Shown piece after piece: positions 9,294 to 23,912 of a stretch of 61,522 bases of DNA. Below the pieces are notes generated by a model, which was given only the letters and a program-made list of their open reading frames with translations, did not search any database and was not told the origin of the DNA. The stretch is from Gammaproteobacteria bacterium. Lineage in GTDB: Bacteria; Pseudomonadota; Gammaproteobacteria; GCA-001735895. Both the position numbers and the translations under genes were made by a program. The DNA lies in contig JAIBDO010000001.1 in assembly GCA_024686195.1 (NCBI GenBank), positions 1-61,522 on the forward strand, in the 5' to 3' direction. How positions within the stretch are numbered: position 1 is the stretch's first letter; each line of letters starts with the position of its first letter.

Positions 9294-9446
9294 TCGCGGG
9301 TCCTGAGGGTATTTACCAGAAAGCGGAACTTCAGCACGCACGGGAAAATCAGCTCGCCAACAGCAATACTTTATCTGGCCTATGCGTTTGTGATGCCGAT
9401 AGTTAATGCAGCTGCCTGGGGCCGGTAGCGTTATCGGAAAGCGGCC

Positions 9447-10149: not shown

Positions 10150-11037
10150 CTAATCGAAGAGGTCATCGTCCAGGGCCTGCGACAACAGTTCTATTAGCGC
10201 CCTGGCCATGGGTAGTATGGGATTGCCGGATACCCATGCCAGTCCGAGCTGCTGGGTAACGGTCGGATTGACTAATTGTTTGGCGCGTGTGCCCGGCAAT
10301 TCATTGAAGCGTTTTGGAACAATGGTTGCCAGATCTCCAGCCATGACATGAAAGGCCAGTTGGAAAATCGAATTCGATTCGAGTTGTGGTCTTGGTTTGC
10401 ACTCCACGGTGGCAAAGGCCGCGTCTATCATCTGACGTTCGCGCATCGCTGGTGACAGCAGGCAAAGCGGCAGGTTGGCTGCTTCGGCCCAGGTTACCGT
10501 CGGTTGATCGTCCAGCCAGTCGTTATCGGGCAGCAACAGGTGCAAGGGTTCTTCATACAGGGCAAGAGTTTCAAGCCGGGAGTCGGTGAGCTGTTCAAGG
10601 TCGGTGAAACCAACATCCAGCTCGAAGTTTTTCAGCGCAAGTGTCAGCTGATCGATGCCCATAAATTGAATGTCGACCTGCACGACTGGGTATTCCTTCT
10701 GGAACAGACGCGCCACAATCGGCAGCATCGGCGAACTGGTAGGCATTGCGCCGATTCTCAGGCGGCCGTGCAGATTCTTCTTCATGATCGCCAGCTCTTC
10801 GAGCATCGCCGAGCGATCAGATAGCAGTCGCTTCGCCCATTCTACGACACGCAAACCTTCGTTGGTGAATCCCTGGAATTTCTGGTCACGCAGGATGATC
10901 GGAACGCCGAGCTCCTCTTCCAGCTTTTTGATCGCACTGGACAGGCTTGGTTGAGACACGAAGCAACGTTCAGCGGCACGGCTGAAGTGTCCTTCCTGCT
11001 CGAGTGCGATTAAATACTGGAATTGGCGCAGAAACAT
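10150..11037 (-). CDS. LysR-family transcriptional regulator
   Basis: 295 aa with wHTH LRQFQYLIALEQEGHFSRAAERCFVSQPSLSSAIKKLEEELG. Divergent from the TauE/GcvT-like/PanB-like genes. Confidence 0.9.
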   Translation of the reverse strand: MFLRQFQYLIALEQEGHFSRAAERCFVSQPSLSSAIKKLEEELGVPIILRDQKFQGFTNEGLRVVEWAKRLLSDRSAMLEELAIMKKNLHGRLRIGAMPTSSPMLPIVARLFQKEYPVVQVDIQFMGIDQLTLALKNFELDVGFTDLEQLTDSRLETLALYEEPLHLLLPDNDWLDDQPTVTWAEAANLPLCLLSPAMRERQMIDAAFATVECKPRPQLESNSIFQLAFHVMAGDLATIVPKRFNELPGTRAKQLVNPTVTQQLGLAWVSGNPILPMARALIELLSQALDDDLFD

Positions 11038-11143
11038 GATTGCCCTGAGTAATCAGCTAGGTGCCTATGTTACATTAGTTTGTTGCCGGAATGCTGCTGC
11101 TTAGGTGCCGGTTTTTCGAATTTTTTGTCGCGGATGACTGTTG

Positions 11144-11893
11144 ATGTCGATAACCCTGATTTTAATCTGCCTTATTGTCGGTGTGCTGATCGGTGCAGTG
11201 GGTATTGGTGGCGTGCTGCTGGTGCCCTCACTCAACCTGATTGCCGGCATCGATGTGCATGAGGCCGTGCCCGCCTGCACACTCAGTTACCTGGCAACTG
11301 GGGTCATTGGTGTCATCGTCTATGCGCGCCACGGTTCGATACAATGGCCAAAGGTCTTCTGGCTTTGCCTGGGGGCCATACCGGCGGCATTTCTGGGTTC
11401 GATCTCACTGCTCAGTATCCCTTCGATCGTCGTGATGTCCCTGATTGCCTTGCTGATGATCGTTAGCGGTATTGACGCTCTGATCAAAGCTTATCGAAAA
11501 TCCTCTGACGAGCAGCCGAAGCGCCAGTTAAGCCCGTTGCAGTTTATCGTAATCGGTTTTATCACCGGATTCGGCTCGGCCATAACGGGCACGGGTGGCC
11601 CACTAATTCTCGTCCCGCTCATCATCTTTCTCGGCTTGCCTGTTCTCACCGCGATCGGCCTCAGTCAGGCCATTCAGCTGCCGATCGCGGCGTTTGCCAG
11701 TACCGGTAACTGGATGTCCGGAAACCTGAATTTTGAACTGGCCCTGGTGATTGCGGCGGTGTTAGTGGTCGGTTCGTTCGCTGGTGCGCTACTCATACAT
11801 CGGTTGCCGGCCGAACCGATCCGCAAGATGATTGCCTTCCTGCTGGTTTTTGTCGGTGCCGGTATCGGTATCCAGCAGCTATTCCAGCTGTAG
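11144..11893 (+). CDS. TauE/SafE-family (DUF81) membrane exporter, sulfite-exporter type
   Basis: About 249 aa, multi-TM and Gly-rich, with the internal duplication typical of TauE/SafE. The track starts at TTG 11141; ATG is at 11144. Confidence 0.85.
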   Translation: MSITLILICLIVGVLIGAVGIGGVLLVPSLNLIAGIDVHEAVPACTLSYLATGVIGVIVYARHGSIQWPKVFWLCLGAIPAAFLGSISLLSIPSIVVMSLIALLMIVSGIDALIKAYRKSSDEQPKRQLSPLQFIVIGFITGFGSAITGTGGPLILVPLIIFLGLPVLTAIGLSQAIQLPIAAFASTGNWMSGNLNFELALVIAAVLVVGSFAGALLIHRLPAEPIRKMIAFLLVFVGAGIGIQQLFQL

Positions 11894-11904
11894 GTCCTGT
11901 CGCA

Positions 11905-12918
11905 GTGTTATCGCTGGCGGATCTGGTTCGAGACTATGGCGACCCCCATGCAGAGGCAATGTGCTGTCGGCAGGATTGCGCGCTGTTTGATTTTTCCTTC
12001 GTTTACCGGATACGGGTCTCGGGCCGGAATGCGATCGCAAGGATCGAACAGTTCCAGCCACGAACCGTCAGCGATATGTCGATCGGGCAGATACGTTACA
12101 GTGTCAAACGCAACGCACAGGGCAGGGTGCGATCTGATTTGACGCTATGGCGCTACGCTGAGGACGTCTTCGAGATCATGAGCGGCTGTGCCGAAGATGT
12201 AAGCGATCTGCAGGCTCAGGCGGGCGAGGAGTTCATTCTGCAGAACCTGAGTGAGAGTACCGCTATTCTCTCATTGCAGGGGCCGAACACATTGGCACAG
12301 CTAGCCTGCTTCATGGATGTTACCGAGATCAGTACTCTGCCTTATTTTCACTTTGTCAGGGCACAAATTGGCGAACTACCCTGTCTGATCGGGCGCCTGG
12401 GTTACTCTGGTGAAGCAGGATTTGAGATATTGGTAGATCAGTCTGCTAGAGACTGGTTGTGGGATTTGTTGTCCACCAGGTTTCCACCGGCCGGTTTTGC
12501 CGCGATCGATATCCTGCGAATCGAAGCAGGTTTCTTCCTGTTTACCAATGAATGTCGAATTTCTCCGTCGATTGGCGAGCTCGGTTTGTCGGCTCTGCTT
12601 GGGGACAGGAAGGGAAGTCCGGAAATCAAACTGGTTGCCTTCGAAGGGAACTGTCATCACACACCGAATCCGGTCTTGTGGCAACCGACCAGTTCTGAGA
12701 TTCGACGCCCTGATTCCGGGGAGATAATGATCACTTCGGCCTGTTTCAGTCCACTGTTTAATCGCGTGATTGGACTGGGTTTTGTTAAGTTCGGCCAGGC
12801 AAGTGACGCCATTATCGATCCCAAACGCAAATTTTCCGACGTTAAAATTTGCTCGCTTCCACCCTACGACCCGCATAAAACAAGGCCTCGAAAGGCATGG
12901 AAGGCCGACACAAGGTGA
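11905..12918 (+). CDS. GcvT-family (aminomethyltransferase-like) folate-binding protein
   Basis: 337 aa with a GTG start 11 nt after the TauE stop. GcvT-like pattern: ...AEAMCCRQDCALFDFSFVYRIRVSGRNA..., LGYSGEAGFEI, DILRIEAGF. Confidence 0.75.
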   Translation: MLSLADLVRDYGDPHAEAMCCRQDCALFDFSFVYRIRVSGRNAIARIEQFQPRTVSDMSIGQIRYSVKRNAQGRVRSDLTLWRYAEDVFEIMSGCAEDVSDLQAQAGEEFILQNLSESTAILSLQGPNTLAQLACFMDVTEISTLPYFHFVRAQIGELPCLIGRLGYSGEAGFEILVDQSARDWLWDLLSTRFPPAGFAAIDILRIEAGFFLFTNECRISPSIGELGLSALLGDRKGSPEIKLVAFEGNCHHTPNPVLWQPTSSEIRRPDSGEIMITSACFSPLFNRVIGLGFVKFGQASDAIIDPKRKFSDVKICSLPPYDPHKTRPRKAWKADTR

Positions 12919-13033
12919 AAGCTATCACCCGATAAAGAGAAGCTCTTTGACAGTTTTTCACGGCCCGGCTTAGTATCTCCGGGCTGCAAAATTGACTTTT
13001 GCAATAATAAAATCAACCACCCACGAGGGAGTC

Positions 13034-13912
13034 ATGTCAGAAGAAACGCCTAGACGAAAGAAAGTAACGATACGTGAATTGCAGCGCAAGATGCGTGATG
13101 ACGAGCAGATTGTGCAGATGGCGATTTACGATTACAGAAGCGCAGTAATCGCAGATCGGCTGGGTATCGACATTCTATGTGTCTCCGATACGGGCGGAAT
13201 GATTTTATTCGGTCATCAGTCAACCGTCACCGTGAGCTTTGACGAAGTCATGATGATGTCGAAGGCTATTGATCGCGGCAGCAAGTACGGCCTTAGAATG
13301 GTCGATATGCCTTACTGGAGCTTTCATGTCTCGCCCGAGCAAGCGGTAGAAAACGCCGGCAAGTTCGTGCATCAGGCAAATGCTGAAGTGATGAAGTGCG
13401 AAGGCAATCAACACCACGCGAAGAATATTGAAGCCATCGTCAAGGCCGGCATTCCGGTGCAGGGGCATATCGGTATTACGCCCATGCGCATGCCGCAGCT
13501 GGGCGGGTTCATCGCCCAGGGTAAAACCTCAGATCGTGCCAAGGAACTCATTGATGACGCCTGGGCAATGGTAGATGCGGGATGTTTTTCTATCATGTGT
13601 GAAGTTACCACCGAGGAAGTTTGCGAATATCTGGCCGAAACATTGCCGGTGCCGGTGATCAGCCTTGGAGCAGGAAACAAGGCCCACGGTGTGCACATTA
13701 TAACTTCCGATTTATTGCATCTGTATGAAGAACATGTTCCACGGCACTCGAAAATTTATACCGACCTCATTCCAATCATGGAAGACGTTTTTATTCGCTA
13801 CCGCGACGAAGTAAGAGAGCGAGTGTATCCGGGACCCGAACACACGGTCTATATGCCACCTGAAGAGCTAAAGAAATTTGCAGAGGCGATGGACTGGAAG
13901 TCAAAACTGTAA
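13034..13912 (+). CDS. 3-methyl-2-oxobutanoate hydroxymethyltransferase (PanB) family paralog
   Basis: Colinear with my memory of E. coli PanB. Equivalents of the GDSLGM, VKIEGG and LECVP catalytic segments are present (SDTGGM, MKCEGN, MCEVT), with C-terminal VYPGPEH. ATG 13034 follows GAGGGAG; the track gives TTG 12992. Confidence 0.8.
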   Translation: MSEETPRRKKVTIRELQRKMRDDEQIVQMAIYDYRSAVIADRLGIDILCVSDTGGMILFGHQSTVTVSFDEVMMMSKAIDRGSKYGLRMVDMPYWSFHVSPEQAVENAGKFVHQANAEVMKCEGNQHHAKNIEAIVKAGIPVQGHIGITPMRMPQLGGFIAQGKTSDRAKELIDDAWAMVDAGCFSIMCEVTTEEVCEYLAETLPVPVISLGAGNKAHGVHIITSDLLHLYEEHVPRHSKIYTDLIPIMEDVFIRYRDEVRERVYPGPEHTVYMPPEELKKFAEAMDWKSKL

Positions 13913-13947
13913 GACCTGCAAACTGGATATTCCAGTCTTACCGGCAG

Positions 13948-13990
13948 TAGACCCGGCCATCACACTAGTAAGGCGGGTCTATTGTTTTTA
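13948..13990 (+). terminator. Rho-independent terminator candidate after the PanB paralog
   Basis: TAGACCCGGCC-(13 nt)-GGCGGGTCTA forms a 10-bp stem with one bulged G, followed by TTGTTTTT. Confidence 0.55.
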
Positions 13991-14040
13991 TATTAACGAG
14001 TTGTTTGCAGTTAGAAACGTACGCAGGAGTTTAAATTAAG

Positions 14041-15336
14041 ATGCCAGCCAGAAATCATAAGCAGTGGAGTGCCAAACCCGATCTAGAACTCGGGGAGTGG
14101 GTCGATAGTCGGATTTATTCTGACGAAGAGATATTCGAGGAAGAGCTGGACAAACTCTGGAAAAAATCCTGGATAGCACTTTGCCATGAATCGGAACTCC
14201 CGGAACCCTATGATTTCCGCACCGGGATTATCGCACGTGAGCCGGTTATCATGGTTCGCGGACCGGATAATAAAGTGCGCGCTTTTCTGAACGTTTGTCC
14301 ACACCGTGGAATGACGATTGAGCGCCGGCCCTCTGGCAGCTTCGCGCCGGCTCAGCCGTCAGGTAACCCGAAACACATGACCTGTTTATTCCATGCCTGG
14401 CAGTTTGACATGAAAGGCAACTGTGTTGACATACCGCGCCAGAAAGAGGGCTACCAGGATCGCCTCGACAAATCTTCCCAGGGTCTTCGGGCTTTGCGTT
14501 GTGAAGTCAAATACGGTGGTTTTGTCTGGGTCTGCCTTGATGATCACACGGAGTTTAACGTCGAAACCTGGGCCGCTGGTGCGATGGATTGCATCAAGGA
14601 TTCACTCGATGCCGAGCCGCTCGAACTGATTCACTACCACAAGGCGATCATCGATTGTAATTACAAACTGTGGCACGACACCAATAGTGAGTTCTATCAC
14701 GATTACATGCACTATCACAATCGCATCACCGGCTTCAACGACGACTATTTTCAGCGTGAGTGCTCGGCTTATGACAATGGCCACGTCAATGTTGGCACCT
14801 TCACCGTGAACTATGAAGAGTATGATGTTGCGGAAGATCGCGGCACCCTGTCATTCCCTAATCTACCCCCCGATAACTGGTACATGGTCGACATGTTTCC
14901 GGGATTGAACTTCAACCTGCGTGGTTCCGTGGTGCGCATGGACTTGATGACGCCGCTGAGCGCCAACCAGGTGATGATCGAATTCCGTGGTTTCGGGCTG
15001 AAAAGTGATTCGCCTGAAGATCGTGCGCATCGTATCCAGCATCACAATTCAATCTGGGGCCCACTGGGCCGTAACCTGCATGAAGACCTCATTGGTGTGG
15101 CCGGCCAGGGTACGACAATGACACCTAAATCAGAGCCGCGTCGTATTTTGCACGGTCGTCACGAGGGTGCTTACATACACGACGAAATCGGTATGCGTCA
15201 CTTTTACGAATCATGGGGTAAGAAGATGGACCGGTTGCCCAGTGATCCCGAGCAGAAATACAAAGCCGGCAAGGTAATGGGACCGGAAATGCCGCCCGCG
15301 AAGGGCTTGTCTACTTTCGCTGGCAAAGGTGCTTAA
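14041..15336 (+). CDS. msmA: Rieske non-heme-iron oxygenase alpha subunit, methanesulfonate monooxygenase hydroxylase large subunit-like
   Basis: 431 aa. Rieske ligands are C86-P-H88 and C115-L-F-H118, separated by 26 residues (nt 14296-14394). There is a mononuclear-iron His/Asp region (EFYHDYMHYH). AGGAG lies upstream of the ATG. The symbol rests on the X26 spacer and the operon context. Confidence 0.75.
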   Translation: MPARNHKQWSAKPDLELGEWVDSRIYSDEEIFEEELDKLWKKSWIALCHESELPEPYDFRTGIIAREPVIMVRGPDNKVRAFLNVCPHRGMTIERRPSGSFAPAQPSGNPKHMTCLFHAWQFDMKGNCVDIPRQKEGYQDRLDKSSQGLRALRCEVKYGGFVWVCLDDHTEFNVETWAAGAMDCIKDSLDAEPLELIHYHKAIIDCNYKLWHDTNSEFYHDYMHYHNRITGFNDDYFQRECSAYDNGHVNVGTFTVNYEEYDVAEDRGTLSFPNLPPDNWYMVDMFPGLNFNLRGSVVRMDLMTPLSANQVMIEFRGFGLKSDSPEDRAHRIQHHNSIWGPLGRNLHEDLIGVAGQGTTMTPKSEPRRILHGRHEGAYIHDEIGMRHFYESWGKKMDRLPSDPEQKYKAGKVMGPEMPPAKGLSTFAGKGA

Positions 15337-15485
15337 AGGCGGGTTTGCAGCGGAGAAACTGAACACGGACAACGGGGCAAGAGCTGATGGAGCAACGCCC
15401 TCGTCCAGTGTGATGCCTGCAGCATCGTAAGTTTGATTTAGCAACGCGCCTGCATGGCGTGAGAATATTATTGGAGAAGCTAGGA

Positions 15486-15983
15486 ATGAATGTAGAGGAA
15501 CAGCATATCAAATCGCTGGTCAGGGAAACGATATATGCGGCTGCCATGTTTCTGGACGATCAGAAATGGAATGACTGGATCGATCAGTGCGATGAAAGCT
15601 TCCACTATTCGGTGGTTACCTACAGCCATGAAGTGCGTAAGGATCTGACCTATCTGCTGATGAGCCACAAGGAAATGCATCCCTACTTTGATTTGCTACC
15701 AAAACACAATACGGATCATTCGCCGTTGCGGCGTCATGCCAGCATTTATACGGTAGATGTATCTGAAGACGGTAAAACGGCCGAGGCAGTGACGTCTTTC
15801 ATCATGACCCAGGAAATGATTGATGGCATCAGTGCGCCACTTTATTCAGGCGAAAATCGGTTATACCTGACCGGAAAATATTATGATAAGTTCAAAATTG
15901 ATGGTGAATCAGTGAAATTTACCGAACGGGTTGCACGGGTATACACCCGGCGGTTCGACAAAGGCACTCATTGGGTTTTCTGA
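15486..15983 (+). CDS. msmB: Oxygenase beta (small, NTF2-like) subunit
   Basis: About 165 aa directly after the alpha subunit, with the size and pattern of ring-hydroxylating-dioxygenase beta subunits. ATG 15486 follows GGAG; the track gives GTG 15459. Confidence 0.7.
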   Translation: MNVEEQHIKSLVRETIYAAAMFLDDQKWNDWIDQCDESFHYSVVTYSHEVRKDLTYLLMSHKEMHPYFDLLPKHNTDHSPLRRHASIYTVDVSEDGKTAEAVTSFIMTQEMIDGISAPLYSGENRLYLTGKYYDKFKIDGESVKFTERVARVYTRRFDKGTHWVF

Positions 15984-16093
15984 TTGGCATCTAACCGAAC
16001 TTTAGCCGTCATTGCAGGTTAGGTAAGCTCGAATGGTTGTCGGATGTTTCTCGGCTGCTAGACGAGTCAATAATAAATAACAGGAGTAGAGAG

Positions 16094-16474
16094 TTGAGTT
16101 GGGAAAAAATCTGCGGAGTTTCCGATGTTCCGGAAAACGCTCTGGAAAAGTTTGAAGTAAATGGCATTGAGCTAGTCGTCGCCAATTATGGCGGTGGTTT
16201 CCGTGCCTTTCCCCCGCGCTGTCCACACATGGAAGAAGCGCTTTGCGACTCTGCCGTGTTGTTCGACGGAATGCTGACCTGTACCAAGCACCTTTGGCAG
16301 TGGGATATGGGGTCAGGGGAAAAAACCGGAATAGCCGAAAAGGAGTTGCTGTTTTATGACGTTAAACAGGAAGGTGGCGATCTTTATGCGCAGGTCGACG
16401 AGGCGCTCGTCTATGAAGACGATGACGATGAAGACGAAGACGAAGACGACGAGGATTTTTTCAATGCCGACTAA
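16094..16474 (+). CDS. msmC: Rieske-type [2Fe-2S] ferredoxin with a poly-acidic C-terminal tail
   Basis: CPHMEEALC...(17 aa)...CTKHLWQWD, with the tail YEDDDDEDEDEDDEDFFNAD. I prefer TTG 16094, preceded by AGGAG at 7 nt spacing; the track gives TTG 16037. The start is uncertain. Confidence 0.7.
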   Translation: MSWEKICGVSDVPENALEKFEVNGIELVVANYGGGFRAFPPRCPHMEEALCDSAVLFDGMLTCTKHLWQWDMGSGEKTGIAEKELLFYDVKQEGGDLYAQVDEALVYEDDDDEDEDEDDEDFFNAD

Positions 16475-16628
16475 TGCCCGTGACGCTATCGAAAACGGAA
16501 GTCGGATAAGCATAGCGTCAGAGATGGCGGGTCAATAGAGCATATTATGCGAGTGACACTGGATTTTTTTAGCGGACGTCAAGGCGGGCTTCGGTGGGTC
16601 GCAAATCGACCCTGTGACCTGGATAATC

Positions 16629-17687: not shown

Positions 17688-17697
17688 GAGTGTCGTC

Positions 17698-18429
17698 ATG
17701 AGCAAGAATATACACATATGTAAGCTGAGTGATATTCCCGCCAACGGAATCAAGGATTTCGTGCTTGAGGGCGGCGAAAAAGTGCTTATCGCTAACTTCA
17801 GCGAGAATTATTATGCCTATAACGGAAATTGCCCTCATCAGGGTACATGCCTTGCCGAAGGTTTTTTCGACGGTGCGGTACTGACCTGTAACAAACATTT
17901 ATGGCAGTGGGATATCACCACCGGAAAGCCCATCGGCCTTGCCGAAGCCCCACTGGAAAGCTATCAGCTCGAGATTGAAGACGGCGAGATATATGTTCGC
18001 AAGGCCAATGCGTTGAAGATGGCCGAGTTATTCAGGGATATTTCAACTAGCACGCAGGACTTGCTGGTGAAACTCACCCGGCGAGAAGAATATGAAGTTG
18101 GTAGCGTTCTATACGATCTGGGTGATCTGACAGACGATCTCTACATTCTCGAATCGGGTCGGGTCGAGTTCGAACTTGGTCGAGACGAACGTACCAGTGC
18201 GGCCGGGTTTATCTTGCGTAAAGGCGAGGTTTTCGGATGGGCCGCACTACTTGAGCATCAACCGATACGTATCGCCCAGGCTGTTTGTGTGGAAAAATCG
18301 GTTCTGTTGCGTCTCAATGGCGAGGAAGTTGTTAAGGTATTAGCAACCGATCCGGCTTCTGGCTACCTGGTCATGCGCCAGTTAGCTACTTTGATCACCA
18401 GGCACTTCACCTCGTCGAGCGAGCAATGA
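17698..18429 (+). CDS. Rieske [2Fe-2S] ferredoxin (MsmC paralog) fused to a C-terminal cyclic-nucleotide-binding-like domain
   Basis: The N-terminal about 105 aa align with the preceding ferredoxin (CPHQGTCL...LTCNKHLWQWD). The C-terminal about 130 aa have the Crp/cNMP beta-roll pattern (VLYDLGDLTDDLYILESGRVEF...RKGEVFGWAALLEHQPIRIAQAVCVEKSVLLRL). ATG 17698 lies just after the reductase stop. Confidence 0.8.
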   Translation: MSKNIHICKLSDIPANGIKDFVLEGGEKVLIANFSENYYAYNGNCPHQGTCLAEGFFDGAVLTCNKHLWQWDITTGKPIGLAEAPLESYQLEIEDGEIYVRKANALKMAELFRDISTSTQDLLVKLTRREEYEVGSVLYDLGDLTDDLYILESGRVEFELGRDERTSAAGFILRKGEVFGWAALLEHQPIRIAQAVCVEKSVLLRLNGEEVVKVLATDPASGYLVMRQLATLITRHFTSSSEQ

Positions 18430-18600
18430 TGAGAGGAGAGCGGCGATTAATAACCGAGTATGAATAACTGAGGATGATTGCAACTCAATGTAAGGAGGTC
18501 ATGATTAAAAAGTAAGGCACCAATCTTTAACCATAAAAAGTTGTTTAGCGCGTTTAGACAATTGACAATTTTAATAATCGAAAATAGTGAGGAGTTATAA

Positions 18601-19755
18601 ATGTTATCTAAATTAAAAAGTATCCAACATCGGGTCACTACCGGTTTCGCTGCGTTGATTGTAGCGTTAGGCCTTACGGCGCCCGGATTAGTGTCCACCG
18701 CATCTGCCGCTGAAATTGATTTTGGCAAGGTCGGAGATCCGATCAATCTTGTTGTAGGTTATCAGCCATATTACACAGAAGCCTGGTCCGGTGTGGTCAT
18801 GAAGAGCCTGAAGCTGTACGAAAAGTACTTGCCGAAAGGGTCGACTGTTGAATTTCAGATTGGCCTGCAAGGCGGTATTATCGTTAACGCCATGCTCGCA
18901 GGAAAGCAACACATCGGCTACATGGGTGACATGCCGGCCATCGTCGCCACCACCAAGGATCGCGTAGCTGACATTCGTATCGTTGCGACCGCAGGTCTTG
19001 GTTTTGATCAGTGCAATAACATGCTGGTCAGAAATGATGCACCGCAGTTTGCCAATGCCGGCGAAGCCATCCAGTGGATGGATGGGAAGGTCGTAGCAGT
19101 ACCGAAAGGCGCCTGTACTGACCGCTTTGCACTGGCTGTTTTCGAGAAAGAAAACATCAAGCCGGCCAGCTACCTGAACCAGAACATCGAAGTAATCACC
19201 AGTGGCTTCCGCGCTGGCAAGCTCGATGCGGCTGCGATCTGGGAACCAACGGCATCACGTCTGGTTGAGGAAGGACTGGCACGTAAAGTTGCTTCTGGCG
19301 CCTCGGTTGATGAGAATGATGGTGGTTTTATCGACATGCGTGGTGACCTGATTGACCAACGTCCCGACGTTGTCAAAGCCTGGCTGAATGCCGAACTCGA
19401 CGCGCAATTGTTCATGGCTGATCCCAAAAACACCATGGCAATCGTGAAGATGGCTGAAGAGCAAACCACTGGCTTCGAATCCAAGGTGCTTTGGAAAGCT
19501 ATGGTTGGTACCACACCGGTACTCCAGGGCGGCACACCGGTTCGAAATGAACTGGCTTTTGCTATTACCCCGAAGGCCCAGGCGCTGATCGACAAAGCAA
19601 CTGTCTTTCTGCACTCCATCAAGACGATCAAAGTGGATACCCTGCGTGACAACGCGATCGAGCGTAGCTTCACCGAAGAAATCCTGAAGGAGCGTGGTCT
19701 GTCAGCACCCGTTGGCAAGATGTGGGCTCAGCCAGATTCTGCTTACGGTATGTAG
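18601..19755 (+). CDS. ABC transporter periplasmic substrate-binding protein, NitT/TauT (NMT1/SsuA-like) family; msmE-like
   Basis: 384 aa with a signal peptide ending ...STASA-AE. GAGGAG precedes the ATG. Sits beside cognate permease and ATPase genes. Confidence 0.85.
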   Translation: MLSKLKSIQHRVTTGFAALIVALGLTAPGLVSTASAAEIDFGKVGDPINLVVGYQPYYTEAWSGVVMKSLKLYEKYLPKGSTVEFQIGLQGGIIVNAMLAGKQHIGYMGDMPAIVATTKDRVADIRIVATAGLGFDQCNNMLVRNDAPQFANAGEAIQWMDGKVVAVPKGACTDRFALAVFEKENIKPASYLNQNIEVITSGFRAGKLDAAAIWEPTASRLVEEGLARKVASGASVDENDGGFIDMRGDLIDQRPDVVKAWLNAELDAQLFMADPKNTMAIVKMAEEQTTGFESKVLWKAMVGTTPVLQGGTPVRNELAFAITPKAQALIDKATVFLHSIKTIKVDTLRDNAIERSFTEEILKERGLSAPVGKMWAQPDSAYGM

Positions 19756-19788
19756 TGCCTGACATAACTTTGTTAGTTCTGTAGAGGA

Positions 19789-19820
19789 CCCCCCGACAGG
19801 AAAATGTCCCGGTCGGGGGG
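19789..19820 (+). promoter_or_regulatory. Strong intra-operon RNA hairpin after the binding-protein gene
   Basis: CCCCCCGAC-(14 nt)-GTCGGGGGG, a 9-bp G/C stem with no downstream T-tract. Confidence 0.5.
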
Positions 19821-19933
19821 CCATCTCTACGCATAGAGCAACAGTTAGTAAATAAATGTAGTTATACCTGGGTGTGCATTCGGCATGGTTGTGCGTGTGC
19901 AGGATACCCGGAACATAAATAGAGGAAGCAGGT

Positions 19934-21286
19934 ATGCCTGACCCGGCAAACAATTCGGAAATTCTAAGCGCCTTGAAAAGCGCGATGCCCTTTCAGATGG
20001 TACCCGGTAATCTGATGCAGGAGATTGCTGCAATCTGTACGCAGGAATCATATGAAGCAGGTGAGAAAATATATGACCTGGGCGCGGTAGCAGACGATGT
20101 TTTCATCGTCGCTTACGGAAGCGTGCGACATACCCTGTCGGCGGATACAGACGCGAGCAAGCATGAGAAAACCATGCGCAGCGGTGATGTTTTCGGCTGG
20201 GCCGCTGTTCTTGAAGGTCAGAGTGTACGTATGGCGGCGACTGCCAGCATCGAGCGTACCCTGGTGCTACGCATCAACGGCAAAAAACTGATCAAATTGT
20301 TTGAGAGCGATCCCGCGGTCGGTGACGTTGTCATGACGCGATTCGCGACCTTGATTAATAAAGAATTCTACGTGCCCAGATCGATTGCCGATCAGGTGCC
20401 GGGCTTCAAGCAAGCCCTCAATGCAAGCAATCTTCAGGGCTCTGAAGTGACCACCATGGCGTTAACCGTCTATCGGATTTCGACCTGGCTGAAAAGCCCG
20501 CGACCGTACCTGATGTTGATCGGTTTTGCACTGTTCCTCAGCTTCTGGATGCTGTCGGTCGAGATTTGGAAATTACCGCGCTTTGTCGATATGCCTGGGC
20601 CGACCGAGGTGTTTACCGAGTGGTTCAGCGAAGATCCCTATTACGGTCTGTCGATCTACACCCCCGAGTATTACAAGCACATTGGCATAAGCCTGCAACG
20701 TATTGCCTTCGCCTTCTTTCTGGCGACTGGGCTGGGTGTGCCACTGGGGCTGTTCCTCGGTTGGTCGAAGAAATTCCGTGAATATATTTTCCCCCTGTTC
20801 GAGGTGTTTCGGCCAATTCCGGTTCTCGCCTGGGTACCACTGGCGATTATCATGTTCAGTGGCTCTGAAACTCCGGTTATTTTCCTGACTTTCCTGGCCT
20901 CATTCTTCGCTACAACGCTGAACACCATGCTGGGCGTAGAATCGATCGACGAGTCCTACAGTCGGGCTGCTCGATGTCTGGGTGCCAGTCGCTGGCAGAC
21001 ATTCGTTCATGTGGTGATCCCCGGCGCTATGCCCTACATTTTTACCGGCCTGCAAATATCCATCGGTGTCGCCTGGTTCTCGCTGGTGGCGGGAGAGATG
21101 GTGTCCGGTCAGTACGGCCTGGGATATGTCATTAACACCGCCTACATGATGATCGAATATCCGAAAATTATCATCGGCATGATCACCCTTGGCGTAGTCG
21201 GCTACATCACCAGCGCCATGGTGCGCATGATGGGTGATTACCTCATGCAGTGGCGGGTGCGTGAACTGGCCCTCGGAGATAACTAA
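19934..21286 (+). CDS. ABC transporter permease (NitT/TauT family) with an N-terminal cyclic-nucleotide-binding-like domain
   Basis: 450 aa. Residues about 12-145 have the cNMP/Crp-like beta-roll (EKIYDLGAVADDVFIVAYGSVRH...SGDVFGWAAVLEGQSVRMAATASIERTLVLRI). The remainder is a 6-TM BPD_transp_1-type permease. Confidence 0.85.
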   Translation: MPDPANNSEILSALKSAMPFQMVPGNLMQEIAAICTQESYEAGEKIYDLGAVADDVFIVAYGSVRHTLSADTDASKHEKTMRSGDVFGWAAVLEGQSVRMAATASIERTLVLRINGKKLIKLFESDPAVGDVVMTRFATLINKEFYVPRSIADQVPGFKQALNASNLQGSEVTTMALTVYRISTWLKSPRPYLMLIGFALFLSFWMLSVEIWKLPRFVDMPGPTEVFTEWFSEDPYYGLSIYTPEYYKHIGISLQRIAFAFFLATGLGVPLGLFLGWSKKFREYIFPLFEVFRPIPVLAWVPLAIIMFSGSETPVIFLTFLASFFATTLNTMLGVESIDESYSRAARCLGASRWQTFVHVVIPGAMPYIFTGLQISIGVAWFSLVAGEMVSGQYGLGYVINTAYMMIEYPKIIIGMITLGVVGYITSAMVRMMGDYLMQWRVRELALGDN

Positions 21287-22149
21287 TGAGTGCAGTAATA
21301 GATGAAAATTTAGGTTCGCTGGCGGACGTCACCGACGGCGCAATCAGCATTAAGGATGTGGTCAAAATATACGACCCGGATGGGGCCGCGGTGATGGCGG
21401 TCGACCATTGTTCGATCGAAATTCCAGCTGGGGAAATCTGTATGATCGTCGGCCCGTCGGGTTGCGGCAAGACAACCCTGCTGAATGCCATTGCCGGTTT
21501 CCACGGCATCACTTCCGGCAGTATCCACCTCGATGGCGAACTGTTGTGCGGCCCTGAAAAGCCACAGGCAGAGCCCGGTTCTGATCGCATTGTAGTGTTC
21601 CAGAACGGCGCACTATTCCCCTGGAAGACCAATCTCGACAACGTTGCTTTCGGGCCGATGATGGCTGGTAAGCTGAGCAAGGAGGAAATCTACGATAAGG
21701 CGCGCAGCATGATGGCAGACGCGGGCCTGAGCGGCAACGAGAACAACTATCCGGGCGAAATATCCTCGGGCTTGCGGCGTCGGGTCGAAATAGTCCGCGC
21801 ACTCATGAACGATCCCAAAGTATTGCTATTCGATGAGCCTTATCGCGCGCTTGATTCTCTCACCAAGTCGGTTATGCATGAAGCCTTGCTGGAAATCTAC
21901 TATCGCAACAAGGTCACGATTTTCTTTATAACTCACGATCTCGAAGAGGCGATCTTCCTTGGCCACCGGTTGATCATCATGTCTTCCCGACCCTGTAAGC
22001 CAAAGAAAATTGTAGAAGTGGATATACCCCATCCACGCGATTACAGCGTGCTGACTTCTCCCCGTTTTCGGGAGCTTATGAACGAAGCCAAAGACGTCGT
22101 GCATGAGGAGGCTACCAAAGCCTTCGAAGCCGGCGAAAAAGAAGGATAG
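21286..22149 (+). CDS. ABC transporter ATP-binding protein (NitT/TauT family)
   Basis: Walker A GPSGCGKTT, signature ISSGLRRR, Walker B LLFDEP. Its start shares 1 nt with the permease stop. Confidence 0.9.
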   Translation: MSAVIDENLGSLADVTDGAISIKDVVKIYDPDGAAVMAVDHCSIEIPAGEICMIVGPSGCGKTTLLNAIAGFHGITSGSIHLDGELLCGPEKPQAEPGSDRIVVFQNGALFPWKTNLDNVAFGPMMAGKLSKEEIYDKARSMMADAGLSGNENNYPGEISSGLRRRVEIVRALMNDPKVLLFDEPYRALDSLTKSVMHEALLEIYYRNKVTIFFITHDLEEAIFLGHRLIIMSSRPCKPKKIVEVDIPHPRDYSVLTSPRFRELMNEAKDVVHEEATKAFEAGEKEG

Positions 22150-22156
22150 AACAGAG

Positions 22157-22981
22157 ATGAGTGTAAGCAATTTTTCAGACAAGCTGTTCAGTAAGGCAGC
22201 GATGCGTGGCATCTTCGCGATCGTCGTTTTCGTGCTGATATGGGAAGTCGGTGCTCGTTCCGAGCAATGGTTTGGTTATCGTTTCCCGTTTATTGGATTG
22301 GTACCCCCGCCCACCGATGTATTCGTCAGCTGGGGAGGATTGATTGCGGATCCCAGTTACTGGCAAAGCTGGTACATGAGTTTCCTGCGTGTTTTCGGAG
22401 GATTCGCGGCGGCCATGGTCATCGGAATCCCGATGGGTTTGCTAATGGCGGTCAATAAAGCCAGTTACGGCATCATTTTTCCGTCTTTTGAAGTGCTGCG
22501 TCCTATTCCACCGCTAGCCTGGGTGCCGGCGTCGATCATCTTCTGGCCTACCCAGGAATTGTCGATTGCCTTCGTCACTTTCCTCGGCGCGTTTTACACC
22601 ATTGTTATCAATGTGCTGGGTGGCGCTAAATCGATCAACAAGCAGTTTTTGCAGGCCGCGCAATCTATGGGAGCGTCACAGTGGGACATCTTCCGTCGCA
22701 TCGTTCTCCCTGCAACATTGCCATCGATTGTGGTTGGTTCTGCAGTTGGTATGGGAATTACCTGGGAGGTTGTGGTCGCCGCAGAAATGATCTCGGGTGG
22801 TGGCAGCTCCGGTGGTGGTGCCGGTGGCGGGCTCGGATTTTTTATCTGGAGCTCTTATGTGGGTGGATCCTACGAACAGATCATTGTCGGCATGATCAGT
22901 ATCGGCATCGCCGGTTATATAAGCAGCGAGCTATTGCGGCAACTCGGTGGTTTGCTAACTCCCTGGCTGAAAACACGGTAA
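22157..22981 (+). CDS. ABC transporter permease (NitT/TauT family), second membrane subunit
   Basis: Permease fold with a Gly-rich insertion EMISGGGSSGGGAGGGLGFF. I use ATG 22157 (MSVSNFSDK...). The track start at 22103 would overlap the ATPase gene by 47 nt. Confidence 0.85.
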   Translation: MSVSNFSDKLFSKAAMRGIFAIVVFVLIWEVGARSEQWFGYRFPFIGLVPPPTDVFVSWGGLIADPSYWQSWYMSFLRVFGGFAAAMVIGIPMGLLMAVNKASYGIIFPSFEVLRPIPPLAWVPASIIFWPTQELSIAFVTFLGAFYTIVINVLGGAKSINKQFLQAAQSMGASQWDIFRRIVLPATLPSIVVGSAVGMGITWEVVVAAEMISGGGSSGGGAGGGLGFFIWSSYVGGSYEQIIVGMISIGIAGYISSELLRQLGGLLTPWLKTR

Positions 22982-22986
22982 CCCAG

Positions 22987-23874
22987 ATGAATACAACTAC
23001 TCAAGATTCGGTTAAGCCAAAAACGGCTTCCTTCGCACAAGCCAGCAGCGAAATTGTGGCGACGAATATTTCCAAGTCCTATGGCGCAGGTCCTTTTGCC
23101 AAGCAGGTTGTCGATAACTGTTCGTTTACCATCGAAAGCAATAAATTGACCGTGATGATCGGGCCATCGGGTTGCGGCAAAAGTACTCTCATCCAGCTGA
23201 TTGCGGGTTTTGAGAGTCCTGATAGCGGTACGATTACGATGAACGGCAATCCGATCACGGGTCCGGGAAAGGATCGTCTGGTACTGTTCCAGGAGTCTGC
23301 ACTTTTCCCGTGGATGACTACCTATGACAACATCATGTATGGTCCTCGAGCGCGCGGTGAAGATAACGCCGAATCGGTAGAGTTGGCCGAGTTTCTGCTG
23401 GCCAAGGTCGGTCTCGAGGCTTTCAGGGACAAGTACCCGCAACAGCTCTCGGGCGGCATGCAGCGTCGAGCAGAACTGGCACGGGCAATGATCAACAAGC
23501 CCGAAGTGATGATCCTTGATGAGCCGTTTCGCGGTCTGGATAACATGTCCAAGGAGTTGATGTGGGAATACTATGCAGCACTCTACGAAGAAGACAAAAA
23601 TACCAACTTTTTCGTGACCACGGACATTGACGAAGCCATCTTTCTCGCCGATCGCCTGTTGATTATGACTAATCTCCCAACCAACTGCCGTTCCGTTATC
23701 GAGATCGATATACCCCGCCCGCGTCGGATCGACGATATCGGTAACAACGCTCGTGCGAATGATATCAAGAAAGAGGTGATGACCTTGCTACACGAGGAAG
23801 CGATGAAATCCTTCTCGGGTGGCAGTAAGGCCGCGGCAGATTTCCTCGATGCTTATTCCAAGCGCGCCGGTTGA
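22987..23874 (+). CDS. ABC transporter ATP-binding protein (NitT/TauT family), second ATPase
   Basis: Walker A GPSGCGKST, signature LSGGMQRR, Walker B MILDEP. The true start is ATG 22987 (MNTTTQDS...). The track's extension back to 22681 is an out-of-frame read through the permease gene. Confidence 0.9.
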   Translation: MNTTTQDSVKPKTASFAQASSEIVATNISKSYGAGPFAKQVVDNCSFTIESNKLTVMIGPSGCGKSTLIQLIAGFESPDSGTITMNGNPITGPGKDRLVLFQESALFPWMTTYDNIMYGPRARGEDNAESVELAEFLLAKVGLEAFRDKYPQQLSGGMQRRAELARAMINKPEVMILDEPFRGLDNMSKELMWEYYAALYEEDKNTNFFVTTDIDEAIFLADRLLIMTNLPTNCRSVIEIDIPRPRRIDDIGNNARANDIKKEVMTLLHEEAMKSFSGGSKAAADFLDAYSKRAG

Positions 23875-23912
23875 GTCAACCTGCCACTGTTAAACAATTG
23901 GTTTAAATCGAA

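What the first reader, a model, noticed from the sequence alone, without database searches (positions are those of the whole stretch)
17698..18429. Duplicated Rieske ferredoxin in which a cNMP-binding-like domain replaces the acidic tail
The first ~105 residues are a clear paralog of the preceding ferredoxin. Compare CPHQGTCLAEGFFDGAVLTCNKHLWQWDITTGKPIGLAE with CPHMEEALCDSAVLFDGMLTCTKHLWQWDMGSGEKTGIAE.

The first copy ends in a poly-Asp/Glu tail. This copy continues into a ~130-aa Crp/cNMP-type beta-roll with a C-terminal helix (...LYILESGRVEF...GEVFGWAALLEHQPIRIAQAV...GYLVMRQLATLITRHF) and has no DNA-binding HTH. A soluble electron carrier fused to a ligand-binding regulatory domain could act as a switchable or alternative electron donor to the oxygenase, or as a redox-sensing regulator.
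Basis: seen in the sequence. Interest (0 to 1): 0.8.

Follow-up and report, generated by a model that had tools for sequence, protein, structure and literature searches.

The report
Sensor-tagged ferredoxin in methanesulfonate operon
A small iron-sulfur electron carrier in a methanesulfonate-degrading gene cluster carries a built-in sensor domain, and a copy of that sensor sits on the cluster's import pump; relatives of the protein are encoded in 183 bacterial species genomes, no paper found describes it, and the pairing suggests that electron supply and uptake are switched by one small molecule.

Summary
ORF 17698-18429 (+) encodes a 243-aa protein with an intact Rieske [2Fe-2S] ferredoxin domain (aa 1-103) and a CRP-like cyclic-nucleotide-binding-fold (CNB) domain (aa ~104-238). 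It has no HTH.

The surrounding cluster encodes methanesulfonate monooxygenase. MsmA has the diagnostic CXH-X26-CXXH motif.

The "recent duplicate" reading is wrong:
- The gene belongs to a family with relatives in 183 species genomes.
- It nearly always follows the reductase gene within -4 to +16 nt.
- In 75 of 82 loci read it is the only Rieske ferredoxin. These are the short-spacer MsmA-like clusters of Thiobacillus, Methyloversatilis and Methylibium.
- The window operon is a mosaic. MsmABC are of the classic lineage. The reductase and the fusion are of the other lineage.

The sensor is not canonical. The ribose-binding Glu of the phosphate-binding cassette is an invariant Trp, the Ser/Thr after the Arg is Ile/Leu/Met, and the Arg is kept.

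The same Trp-type module also occurs:
- on the N-terminus of the cluster's ABC permease (19934-21286);
- as a solo protein after msmD or beside the sulfite exporter TauE in related loci.

Best reading: a ligand-gated ferredoxin that senses a pathway anion, not cAMP. No function has been described in the literature searched.

The parts
17698..18429 (+). Rieske-CNB fusion gene (243 aa plus stop). Rieske ferredoxin domain aa 1-103, helical linker aa 104-126, CNB beta-roll aa 127-218, C-helix aa 219-238.
   Evidence: Translation. Pfam. AF2 model. Foldseek. Family alignment A1.
17830..17898 (+). Codons for the [2Fe-2S] ligands C45, H47, C64 and H67 (CPH-x16-CNKH).
   Evidence: Motif found. All four ligands are invariant in 80 of 80 aligned fusions.
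18232..18276 (+). Non-canonical phosphate-binding-cassette equivalent, F179-G-W181-A-A-L-L-E-H-Q-P-I-R191-I-A193.
   Evidence: The register comes from a HMMER alignment to Plasmodium PKG. W181, R191 and A193 are invariant or nearly so in all three module classes (83 fusions, 56 permease modules, 21 solo). W181 and R191 are 80 of 80 in fusions. Canonical motif FGE[LIV]AL..[PV]R[ANQV] is from PMC2246266.
16614..17687 (+). Reductase (MsmD position; Fer2 + FAD_binding_6 + NAD_binding_1). It is of the short-spacer-cluster lineage. Its stop lies 10 nt before the fusion's ATG.
   Evidence: Pfam. 68-74% identity to type-2 reductases against 39-40% to classic MsmD. The reductase-stop to fusion-start gap is -4 to +16 nt in 73 of 74 loci.
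16037..16474 (+). MsmC-type Rieske ferredoxin with a conserved acidic tail (...DFFNAD). The true start is probably about 16-20 codons downstream of the TTG.
   Evidence: Pfam. 48-52% identity to classic MsmC. Orthologues are 125-129 aa with the same tail.
14041..15336 (+). MsmA, the large hydroxylase subunit of methanesulfonate monooxygenase, with CXH-X26-CXXH.
   Evidence: The 26-residue spacer was counted. Its diagnostic value is stated in PMC4433239. Homologues at 65-97% identity are named 'methanesulfonate monooxygenase large subunit' by JGI.
15459..15983 (+). MsmB, the small hydroxylase subunit.
   Evidence: Weak Ring_hydroxyl_B match. 43-49% identity to classic MsmB.
18601..19755 (+). 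Periplasmic substrate-binding protein (MsmE position; SsuA / NMT1_2 family).
   Evidence: Pfam and NCBIfam. 83% identity to the SBP of the classic marine cluster L084.
19934..21286 (+). ABC permease with an N-terminal Trp-type CNB domain (aa about 10-150) that is a paralogue of the fusion's sensor.
   Evidence: Pfam cNMP_binding plus BPD_transp_1. 38% identity, E 1e-30, to the fusion's CNB domain. The membrane part is 83% identical to a plain 283-aa permease in L084.
21286..22149 (+). ABC ATPase 1.
   Evidence: Pfam ABC_tran.
22157..22981 (+). Second ABC permease, with no CNB domain. The start is taken at the second Met, because homologues are 273-274 aa.
   Evidence: Pfam BPD_transp_1. Homologue lengths.
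22990..23874 (+). ABC ATPase 2.
   Evidence: Pfam ABC_tran.
10150..13912 (.). Accessory genes shared with known msm regions: LysR regulator (10150-11037, -), TauE sulfite exporter (11141-11893, +), GcvT-like (11905-12918, +), PanB-like (12992-13912, +).
   Evidence: Pfam. The same set appears in the Filomicrobium msm region, Table 1 of PMC4433239.

Best explanation
The gene encodes a ligand-gated Rieske ferredoxin.

**Proposed mechanism**
- The N-terminal [2Fe-2S] domain carries electrons from the adjacent NADH reductase (Fer2-FAD-NAD type) to the MsmA-type Rieske oxygenase.
- The C-terminal CNB-fold domain is an allosteric switch, probably dimerising through its C-helix as CRP does. It binds a small pathway-related anion, with sulfite or methanesulfonate as the leading candidates, not cAMP or cGMP.
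- Ligand binding changes how well the Rieske domain can dock or transfer electrons.
- A paralogous sensor on the cytoplasmic N-terminus of the ABC importer permease responds to the same ligand. Uptake and oxidation of methanesulfonate are therefore tuned together after translation. This would limit sulfite and formaldehyde build-up, or uncoupled NADH oxidation.

**In this window**
- The operon is a mosaic. Classic msmABC brought its own ferredoxin, MsmC.
- The reductase, the fusion and the CNB-permease come from the lineage in which the fusion is the sole ferredoxin.
- Here the fusion is therefore a second, regulated route beside MsmC.

**Shown:** architecture, fold, intact ligands, non-canonical cassette, synteny, mosaic origin, and co-occurrence of the modules.

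**Inferred:** electron-carrier role, allostery, ligand identity.
For: **Carrier role**
- The Rieske ligands are invariant in 80 of 80 fusions.
- The closest solved relatives are true electron shuttles. T4moC scores E 9e-26. CarAc and NDO ferredoxin match by fold.
- In 75 of 82 fusion-bearing loci no other Rieske ferredoxin lies within +/-10 kb. This held under a family HMM at E <= 1 and under a motif scan.
- MSAMO needs all four components, including a ferredoxin (PMC4433239).
- The reductase stop is -4 to +16 nt from the fusion start in 73 of 74 loci.
- The reductase and the fusion moved together into the window lineage. They are 68-74% and 66-69% identical to type-2 proteins. MsmA/B/C are 51/32/32% to type-2 and 67/43-49/48-52% to classic. 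Of the long-spacer MsmA loci in which a reductase could be scored (about 47 of the 80 sampled), only L089 and L090 share this reductase.

**Sensor role**
- The CNB domain is at least as conserved as the Rieske domain.
- The cassette F-G-W-A-A...R-[ILM]-A is invariant or nearly so across 160 modules in three architectures.
- Module on permease and fusion co-occur. 53 of 57 fusion loci have a CNB-permease. 0 of 26 fusion-less MsmA loci do.
- Rosetta-stone evidence: some classic msmABCD clusters carry a solo Trp-type CNB protein directly after msmD, in one case with a 4-nt overlap (L093, L130, L131, L141).

**Not a cyclic nucleotide**
- The canonical ribose-binding Glu is replaced by Trp and the Ser/Thr after the Arg by Ile/Leu/Met, while the Arg is kept.
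- None of the 30 CNB families in PMC2246266 has G-W in the cassette.

**Sulfur link**
- Solo modules lie next to the sulfite exporter TauE in most of the loci that have one.
- A divergent solo module lies near SBP56, TusA and DsrE genes.
Against: - There is no biochemical evidence of any kind. Cluster binding, electron transfer and ligand binding are all untested.
- The reductase has its own plant-type [2Fe-2S] domain. BenC-type reductases feed Rieske oxygenases directly, and BenC is the best NCBIfam match, though below cut-off. Short-spacer clusters could therefore be two-component systems in which the fusion only regulates.
- In this window MsmC is present and conserved, so the fusion's carrier role may be redundant here.
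- The Rieske domain diverges slightly faster relative to the CNB domain in MsmC-containing clusters (ratio 1.28 against 1.06, only 8 sequences).
- The co-occurrence counts are not phylogenetically independent, because the genes are inherited as a block.
- The ligand proposal rests only on cassette residues and on gene neighbourhood.
- The substrate of the short-spacer MsmA-like enzymes is itself unproven (PMC4433239).
Confidence: 0.45

Rival explanations
1. Redox-sensing regulator rather than carrier. The Rieske cluster reports the redox state of the electron chain. The CNB domain is the output and contacts the paralogous CNB domain of the permease (or the reductase) to adjust uptake or electron flow. 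The oxygenase is fed by MsmC, or directly by the reductase.
For: - The CNB module on the permease appears and disappears together with the fusion (53 of 57 against 0 of 26).
- CRP-type CNB domains dimerise through the C-helix, and such a helix is predicted here.
- The reductase carries its own Fer2 domain and resembles BenC-type reductases.
- MsmC is present in this window.
Against: - The ligand-pocket residues (W181, R191, A193, Y139, M226) are invariant in all architectures, including solo proteins. That argues for a bound ligand rather than a mere interface.
- Four loci have the fusion with a plain permease.
- The Rieske domain is closest to dedicated shuttles, not to sensors.
- MSAMO-type reductases need a ferredoxin (PMC4433239).
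Confidence: 0.2
2. Ligand-free scaffold. The Trp fills the pocket, as an intrinsic ligand does in KCNH-channel CNB-homology domains (from my own knowledge). The CNB domains then serve only to tether the ferredoxin to the importer, forming an uptake-oxidation metabolon.
For: - The ribose-binding Glu is replaced by a bulky invariant Trp.
- The two CNB-bearing proteins co-occur.
- A CRP-like dimerisation helix is predicted.
Against: - The phosphate-binding Arg is invariant in 160 of 160 modules. That is hard to explain without an anionic ligand.
- Solo modules next to TauE or after msmD occur in clusters with plain permeases.
Confidence: 0.15
3. Genuine cAMP- or cGMP-gated ferredoxin. A global second messenger would switch electron supply to the oxygenase.
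For: - Pfam cNMP_binding scores above its gathering threshold.
- The best fold matches are cAMP-binding GlxR and CRP.
- The cassette Arg is retained.
Against: - The cassette Glu that contacts the ribose 2'-OH is Trp, and the Ser/Thr/Ala after the Arg is Ile/Leu/Met, in every member.
- Every family with a canonical cassette in PMC2246266 Table 1 starts it with G-E or G-Q.
- The module is found only in C1-sulfur gene neighbourhoods.
Confidence: 0.08
4. Hitch-hiking remnant in this particular genome. The fusion is functional where it is the sole ferredoxin. In the window lineage it merely came along with the reductase-transporter block and is redundant with MsmC.
For: - The operon is a mosaic.
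- The Rieske part diverges slightly faster relative to the CNB part in MsmC-containing clusters (1.28 against 1.06).
- Most long-spacer MsmA clusters work without any fusion.
Against: - All eight MsmC-containing members keep the four ligands and the cassette.
- They remain 53-90% identical in the Rieske domain across Arenicellales, Ca. Thiodiazotropha and other gammaproteobacterial MAGs.
- The ORF is intact with conserved tight spacing to the reductase gene.
Confidence: 0.1

Closest known systems
MsmC, the Rieske-type ferredoxin of methanesulfonate monooxygenase (Methylosulfonomonas methylovora msmABCD)
   Same: - Same operon type and same Rieske ferredoxin fold and ligands.
- Sits beside an MsmD-type reductase.
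- Presumably has the same redox partners.
   Different: - Only about 38% identical.
- Lacks the conserved acidic tail (...DFFNAD).
- Carries a 140-aa CNB domain instead.
- Lies after the reductase gene, not before it.
- Belongs to a separate lineage that is the sole ferredoxin in short-spacer clusters.
T4moC, ferredoxin of toluene 4-monooxygenase (PDB 1vm9)
   Same: - Best-scoring solved relative of the Rieske domain (E 9e-26).
- A soluble shuttle between an [2Fe-2S]-flavin reductase and a hydroxylase.
   Different: T4moC is a single 111-aa domain with no regulatory appendage. It serves a diiron hydroxylase, not a Rieske oxygenase.
CRP / GlxR-type cAMP-binding domains (PF00027; PDB 4byy, 3h3u)
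   Same: - Beta-roll plus C-helix fold, rmsd about 2 A over 133-136 columns.
- The cassette Arg is retained.
   Different: - No HTH output domain.
- The cassette reads FGW...R-I-A instead of FGE...R-[ST]-A.
- The output is a redox domain or a transporter.
CNB families with non-canonical cassettes or non-nucleotide ligands (NtcA/2-oxoglutarate, CooA/heme, CprK, PDZ-GEF; Kannan et al. 2007, PMC2246266). That survey also lists 'Bact_Pyrredox', CNB domains fused to a pyridine-nucleotide-disulphide oxidoreductase.
   Same: - They are a precedent for the CNB fold sensing ligands other than cAMP or cGMP.
- They are also a precedent for fusion to redox enzymes.
   Different: None of the 30 families has a G-W cassette, a Rieske partner or a BPD-type permease partner.
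Trans-inhibited or regulated ABC importers (MetNI C2 domain, ModBC, OpuA CBS domains); from my own knowledge
   Same: A cytoplasmic ligand-binding domain attached to an ABC importer and gating uptake. This is the likely logic of the CNB-permease that partners the fusion.
   Different: In those systems the regulatory domain is on the ATPase C-terminus and has a different fold. Here it is a CNB domain on the permease N-terminus, and it is duplicated onto an electron carrier.

Membership tests
Rieske [2Fe-2S] ferredoxin of multicomponent oxygenases (PF00355) | CXH...CXXH cluster ligands with a spacer of about 15-17 residues | tested here: met
   CPH-x16-CNKH. Invariant in 80 of 80 family members.
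Rieske [2Fe-2S] ferredoxin of multicomponent oxygenases (PF00355) | Profile score above the curated threshold, and the ferredoxin-type fold | tested here: met
   46.4 bits against a 20.3 cut-off. T4moC E 9e-26. Foldseek TM 0.85-0.9 to CarAc and NDO ferredoxin.
Rieske [2Fe-2S] ferredoxin of multicomponent oxygenases (PF00355) | Encoded with a cognate reductase and a terminal oxygenase | tested here: met
   The reductase gene lies immediately upstream in 73 of 74 loci, with alpha and beta subunits upstream of that.
Rieske [2Fe-2S] ferredoxin of multicomponent oxygenases (PF00355) | Binds a cluster and transfers electrons between reductase and oxygenase | not testable with these tools
   Needs purified protein (EPR or UV-visible spectra, reconstitution).
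MsmC (MSAMO ferredoxin), orthology | Closest relatives are MsmC of long-spacer msmABCD clusters; conserved acidic C-terminal tail; gene lies between msmB and msmD | tested here: not met
   38% identity to MsmC against 54-72% to other fusions. No acidic tail. The gene lies after the reductase.
Cyclic-nucleotide-binding domain (PF00027) | Profile score above the gathering threshold, and the beta-roll plus helical fold | tested here: met
   53 bits against a 27.5 cut-off. Foldseek to GlxR and CRP, probability 1.00.
Cyclic-nucleotide-binding domain (PF00027) | Canonical phosphate-binding cassette FGE[LIV]AL..[PV]R[ANQV / ST]A (PMC2246266) | tested here: not met
   Glu is replaced by an invariant Trp181. 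The residue after the Arg is Ile (Leu or Met in the permease modules). Arg191 and Ala193 are kept.
Cyclic-nucleotide-binding domain (PF00027) | Binds cAMP or cGMP | not testable with these tools
   Needs ITC, DSF or crystallography.
Crp/Fnr transcription factors | C-terminal winged-helix / HTH DNA-binding domain | tested here: not met
   The protein ends 5 residues after the C-helix. There is no HTH Pfam hit.
Methanesulfonate monooxygenase gene cluster (msmABCD / msmEFGH) | MsmA with CXH-X26-CXXH (PMC4433239) | tested here: met
   26-residue spacer. 65-97% identity to proteins that JGI names MsmA.
Methanesulfonate monooxygenase gene cluster (msmABCD / msmEFGH) | Beta subunit, Rieske ferredoxin, Fer2-FAD-NAD reductase, an SsuA-like ABC importer, and accessory LysR / TauE / GcvT / PanB-like genes | tested here: met
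   The same set appears in the Filomicrobium region (PMC4433239).
Methanesulfonate monooxygenase gene cluster (msmABCD / msmEFGH) | Oxidises methanesulfonate to formaldehyde and sulfite | not testable with these tools
   Enzyme assay or growth test needed.

The most novel reading that the evidence does not exclude
The Trp-type CNB module is a previously unrecognised class of small-anion sensor, for sulfite or methanesulfonate. Bacteria would deploy it on three targets at once: a ferredoxin, an ABC importer permease, and a partner of the sulfite exporter TauE. One metabolite would then directly gate electron supply, substrate uptake and product export. The Rieske-CNB protein would be the first described ligand-gated ferredoxin.
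Probability: 0.3. Interest if true: 0.85.

Novelty: new variant of a known kind. Interest (0 to 1): 0.62.

Why it matters
- **Regulation of electron carriers.** Soluble ferredoxins of Rieske oxygenase systems are regarded as passive shuttles, with regulation placed at transcription. A conserved ferredoxin with a built-in ligand sensor, paired with the same sensor on the importer, would show that electron delivery itself can be gated allosterically and coordinated with transport.
- **Sulfur cycle.** Methanesulfonate is a major atmospheric oxidation product of dimethylsulfide (PMC4433239). The short-spacer "MsmA-like" clusters of Thiobacillus, Methylibium and Methyloversatilis have had unclear status. 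This work shows they have a complete electron chain only if the fusion is counted as the ferredoxin. That makes their function directly testable.
- **CNB sensors.** The Trp-for-Glu cassette is a clear sequence marker for a new sensor subfamily of the CNB fold.

Tried and rejected
- **Apparent reductase-Rieske-CNB fusion in L042 (587 aa).** The C-terminus of the reductase is read out of frame and a separate ORF carries the true end. This is a frameshift or assembly artefact, not a natural fusion.
- **PDB 8jng, "Methanesulfonate monooxygenase ferredoxin subunit".** It matches both the fusion and the window's MsmC only weakly (E 1e-5 and 4e-5). It could not be used to confirm MsmC identity.
- **Promoter and terminator scan of 13800-24400.** Fewer promoter-like sites than in shuffles, and terminator-like sites at the chance level. 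There is no evidence for or against a break between the fusion and the transporter genes.
- **Rfam scan of 9000-25000.** No RNA family, so no riboswitch.
- **My first PBC register (G176-E177 as the canonical Gly-Glu).** It implied a 4-residue insertion. The HMMER alignment to PKG showed that the canonical pair is G180-W181.
- **Literature searches.** Searches for Rieske plus cyclic-nucleotide-binding fusions, CNB-ABC permease plus sulfonate, Rieske plus cNMP, and msmABCD found no description of this protein. De Marco 1999 (PMC93639) is not held.
- **Contexts of divergent solo modules.** Most contigs were too short to be informative.
- **Stand-alone ferredoxins in short-spacer loci.** A family HMM at E <= 1 and a motif scan found none.
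Full report
**1.

- Window 17698-18429 (+) is an intact ORF of 243 codons plus a stop.
- Pfam places a Rieske domain at aa 5-82 (E 3.7e-12) and a cNMP_binding domain at aa 130-218 (E 3.4e-14). Both are above the curated thresholds, and there is no DNA-binding family.
- The N-terminal 102 residues are 39% identical (E 4e-24) to the ferredoxin encoded at 16037-16474.
- The cluster ligands are present as CPH-x16-CNKH.
- An AlphaFold2 model built on 38 homologues (mean pLDDT 82.7, pTM 0.69) shows a Rieske beta-sandwich (aa 1-102), a helical linker, a beta-roll and a long C-terminal helix (aa 219-238).
- Foldseek matches the C-terminal half to apo and cAMP-bound GlxR and M. tuberculosis CRP (rmsd about 2 A over 133-136 columns). 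It matches the N-terminal half to the ferredoxins of carbazole and naphthalene dioxygenases (rmsd 1.6-1.8 A).
- By sequence profile, the nearest solved relative of the Rieske part is T4moC, the toluene-4-monooxygenase ferredoxin (E 9e-26).

**2. The cluster is a methanesulfonate monooxygenase (MSAMO) locus**

- The alpha subunit (14041-15336) has CXH-X26-CXXH. Henriques and De Marco describe this long spacer as specific to MsmA; other oxygenases have 16-18 residues (PMC4433239).
- Its homologues at 65-97% identity are named "methanesulfonate monooxygenase large subunit" by JGI.
- The flanking LysR, TauE sulfite exporter, GcvT-like and PanB-like genes are the set listed around the Filomicrobium msm operons in that paper.
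- Gene order in the window:
  1. LysR (-)
  2. TauE
  3. GcvT-like
  4. PanB-like
  5. MsmA
  6. MsmB
  7. MsmC (ferredoxin with acidic tail)
  8. reductase
  9. Rieske-CNB fusion
  10. SsuA-like binding protein
  11. permease
  12. ATPase
  13. permease
  14. ATPase

**3. The fusion is a member of a large, conserved family, not a local duplicate**

- A search of 5.8 billion proteins returned 954 hits. The best 120 are nearly all 239-252 aa (a few are truncated), 62-98% identical, and nearly all carry both domains. Where named, they are called only "cyclic nucleotide-binding domain-containing protein" or, by JGI, "toluene monooxygenase system ferredoxin subunit".
- A scan of one genome per species found relatives in 183 genomes. 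These include Thiobacillus denitrificans DSM 12475, T. thioparus DSM 505, Methyloversatilis universalis FAM5, Methylibium sp. Root1272, Glaciimonas immobilis and Ca. Thiodiazotropha. Sulfuriferula plumbiphila was found separately by a protein look-up.
- I called ORFs in 82 loci and classified them with phmmer against the window's proteins. Two cluster types emerged.

| Type | Loci | MsmA spacer | Gene order |
|---|---|---|---|
| 1 | 7, plus the window (gammaproteobacterial MAGs, Arenicellales, Thiodiazotropha) | 26 residues | A-B-MsmC-D-fusion-SBP-permease... |
| 2 | 75 (mostly Betaproteobacteria) | 17 residues | A-B-D-fusion-SBP-permease... |

- Type 2 has no stand-alone ferredoxin. A family HMM at E <= 1 and a motif scan found no other Rieske ferredoxin within +/-10 kb in any type-2 locus.
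- The reductase stop codon lies -4 to +16 nt from the fusion start in 73 of 74 loci; the gap is 10 nt in the window.

**4. The window operon is a mosaic**

Percent identity of the window's proteins to each lineage:

| Window protein | Classic clusters (L084 marine gammaproteobacterium, L083 Methylocella) | Type-2 clusters |
|---|---|---|
| MsmA | 67% | 51% |
| MsmB | 43-49% | 32-36% |
| MsmC | 48-52% | 32-36% |
| Reductase | 39-40% | 68-74% |
| Fusion | 37-40% (aligns only to their MsmC) | 66-69% |

- In an MsmA-anchored sample of 80 metagenome loci, nearly all long-spacer clusters are classic A-B-MsmC-D with plain permeases and no fusion.
- Only L089 and L090, the window's close relatives, combine a type-2-like reductase (303 bits over a 163-aa fragment in L089 and 618 bits in L090 against the window's reductase, versus 98-115 and 271-290 bits against the two classic MsmD queries; every other reductase in the sample scores 218-359 bits against the window's) with MsmABC. 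The fusion itself is seen only in L090, because L089 ends inside the reductase gene.
- The "two ferredoxins" therefore arose by joining msmABC, which brings its own ferredoxin, to a block of reductase, fusion and transporter.
- Rieske domains of fusions are about 38% identical to MsmC and 54-72% identical to each other.
- The acidic tail of MsmC (...DFFNAD) is conserved in the seven related long-spacer loci, and the two classic MsmC read also end in an acidic run; it is not something the fusion lost recently.

**5. The sensor domain is non-canonical and is deployed repeatedly**

- The permease two genes downstream (19934-21286) carries an N-terminal CNB domain. It is 38% identical (E 1e-30) to the fusion's CNB domain.
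- Its membrane part is 83% identical to a plain 283-aa permease in a classic cluster, so the CNB domain is a pure N-terminal addition.
- In related loci a third form exists. Solo CNB proteins of 144-160 aa lie next to the sulfite exporter TauE in many type-2 loci. In some classic msmABCD clusters they lie directly after msmD, exactly where the fusion lies elsewhere. These are L093 (4-nt overlap with msmD), L130, L131 and L141.
- I aligned 160 modules: 83 fusion, 56 permease and 21 solo. Y139, G154, G176, F179, G180, W181, A182, R191 and A193 are conserved in at least 90% of members of every class; Y139, G154, F179, G180, W181 and R191 are strictly invariant.
- A HMMER alignment of the family profile to Plasmodium PKG sets the register. 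F-G-W181-A-A-L-L-...-R191-I-A aligns with the canonical F-G-E-R-A-L-L-...-R-S-A.
- Kannan et al. give the canonical cassette as FGE[LIV]AL..[PV]R[ANQV]. None of their 30 CNB families has G-W, a Rieske partner or a BPD-type permease partner (PMC2246266).
- The phosphate-contacting Arg is therefore kept. The Glu that contacts the ribose 2'-OH (my own knowledge of CNB structures) is an invariant Trp, and the Ser/Thr after the Arg is Ile/Leu/Met.
- A profile search of 1.84 billion representative proteins found Trp-type cassettes only in solo, Rieske-fused or permease-fused proteins. Canonical FGE hits ranked lower and were mostly long proteins with several CNB repeats; the top PDB matches of the wider module profile (A2) were apicomplexan PKGs.
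- One divergent solo module lies beside SBP56, TusA and DsrE sulfur genes. Another lies directly after a PanB-like gene.

**6. Co-occurrence of the modules**

- Among fusion-bearing loci with the first permease covered, 53 have the CNB-permease and 4 have a plain one (L007, L056, L066, L082).
- Among fusion-less MsmA loci, 26 have plain permeases and none has a CNB-permease.
- These counts are not phylogenetically independent, because the genes travel as a block.

**7. Mechanism: best explanation and its limits**

I read the protein as a ligand-gated ferredoxin.

*Carrier role (inferred)*
- The ligands are invariant (80 of 80).
- The Rieske domain is closest to dedicated shuttles.
- It is the only ferredoxin in 75 of 82 clusters.
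- It is tightly coupled to, and co-inherited with, the reductase gene.
- MSAMO requires a ferredoxin (PMC4433239).

*Gating by a small molecule (inferred)*
- The pocket residues are strongly conserved in three architectures.
- The solo-versus-fused Rosetta-stone pattern links the module to the electron chain.

*A pathway anion rather than cAMP (weakest step)*
- This rests on the cassette changes and the exclusively C1-sulfur neighbourhoods.

*Main counter-arguments*
- The reductase has its own plant-type [2Fe-2S] domain and resembles BenC-type reductases, which feed oxygenases directly. In type-2 clusters the fusion could therefore be a regulator only.
- In this window MsmC is present, and the Rieske part of type-1 fusions diverges slightly faster relative to the CNB part (1.28 against 1.06, small sample).

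*Rivals*
- A redox-sensing regulator that talks to the permease's CNB domain.
- A ligand-free tether.
- A true cAMP or cGMP switch.
- A hitch-hiking remnant.

**8. Novelty**

- The domain architecture is present in public databases, but only with generic names.
- Full-text searches found no paper that describes it or the CNB-permease.
- The msm literature that I read treats the cluster as msmABCD plus msmEFGH. It notes the short-spacer "MsmA" proteins of Methylibium and Methyloversatilis only as doubtful.
- I rate this a new variant of a known kind: an MSAMO-type oxygenase system with a sensor-bearing ferredoxin and a sensor-bearing importer.

Noticed in passing
window 19934-21286 (+): The first ABC permease of the msmEFGH-like transporter carries an N-terminal CNB domain of about 150 aa. 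It is a paralogue of the fusion's sensor (38% identity, E 1e-30). Plain orthologues of 283 aa exist in classic clusters.
   Followed up: yes
L012, L013, L023, L032, L044, L048, L058, L075, L076, L078, L082 (next to TauE); L093 3633-4091, L130, L131, L141 (after msmD): Stand-alone Trp-type CNB proteins of 144-160 aa. One subfamily, ending ...LITGTLTAFAGG, always lies beside the sulfite exporter TauE. Another, ending ...MIARNFM, lies directly after msmD in classic msmABCD clusters. The window has neither.
   Followed up: partly
window 16037-16474 (+) and orthologues in L003-L009, L083, L084: MsmC ferredoxins share a conserved poly-Asp/Glu tail. It ends in ...DFFNAD in L003-L009; L083 ends ...DDFFK and L084 ...DDDDD. 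The role of the tail is unknown; it may be a docking element. The window ORF probably starts about 16-20 codons downstream of the listed TTG.
   Followed up: partly
window 11905-13912 (+): GcvT-like aminomethyltransferase and PanB-like hydroxymethyltransferase genes accompany both long- and short-spacer clusters. This suggests a dedicated route that traps the formaldehyde from methanesulfonate on tetrahydrofolate.
   Followed up: no
window 14041-17687 compared with L015, L001, L083, L084: The operon is a mosaic. MsmABC are of the classic lineage. The reductase is 68-74% identical to short-spacer-cluster reductases and only 39-40% identical to classic MsmD.
   Followed up: yes
L086 1-9016: A divergent solo Trp-type CNB gene (P0284) lies after a sigma-54 two-component pair and near SBP56 (methanethiol-oxidase family), TusA, DsrE-like and Pyr_redox_2 genes. 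This is another C1-sulfur or sulfur-oxidation neighbourhood.
   Followed up: no
L042 8963-10726: Reductase and fusion appear as one 587-aa ORF. The junction is out of frame relative to the reductase C-terminus, so this is a frameshift or assembly error in the MAG.
   Followed up: yes
window 508-5750 (-): An MttB-family (trimethylamine methyltransferase-like) gene, an Oxidored_FMN plus Pyr_redox_2 fusion and a TPP enzyme lie next to a LysR gene. They look like a separate methylated-amine or quaternary-amine demethylation module.
   Followed up: no
window 18430-18600: A 170-nt AT-rich spacer lies between the fusion and the binding-protein gene. Related loci mostly have 16-147 nt here. No Rfam family and no convincing promoter or terminator were found.
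   Followed up: partly
window 40650-42032 (+) and 38360-40450 (-): A second Rieske oxygenase alpha subunit (LigXa-like C-terminus) and a molybdopterin oxidoreductase lie elsewhere in the window. They are unrelated to the msm cluster.
   Followed up: no
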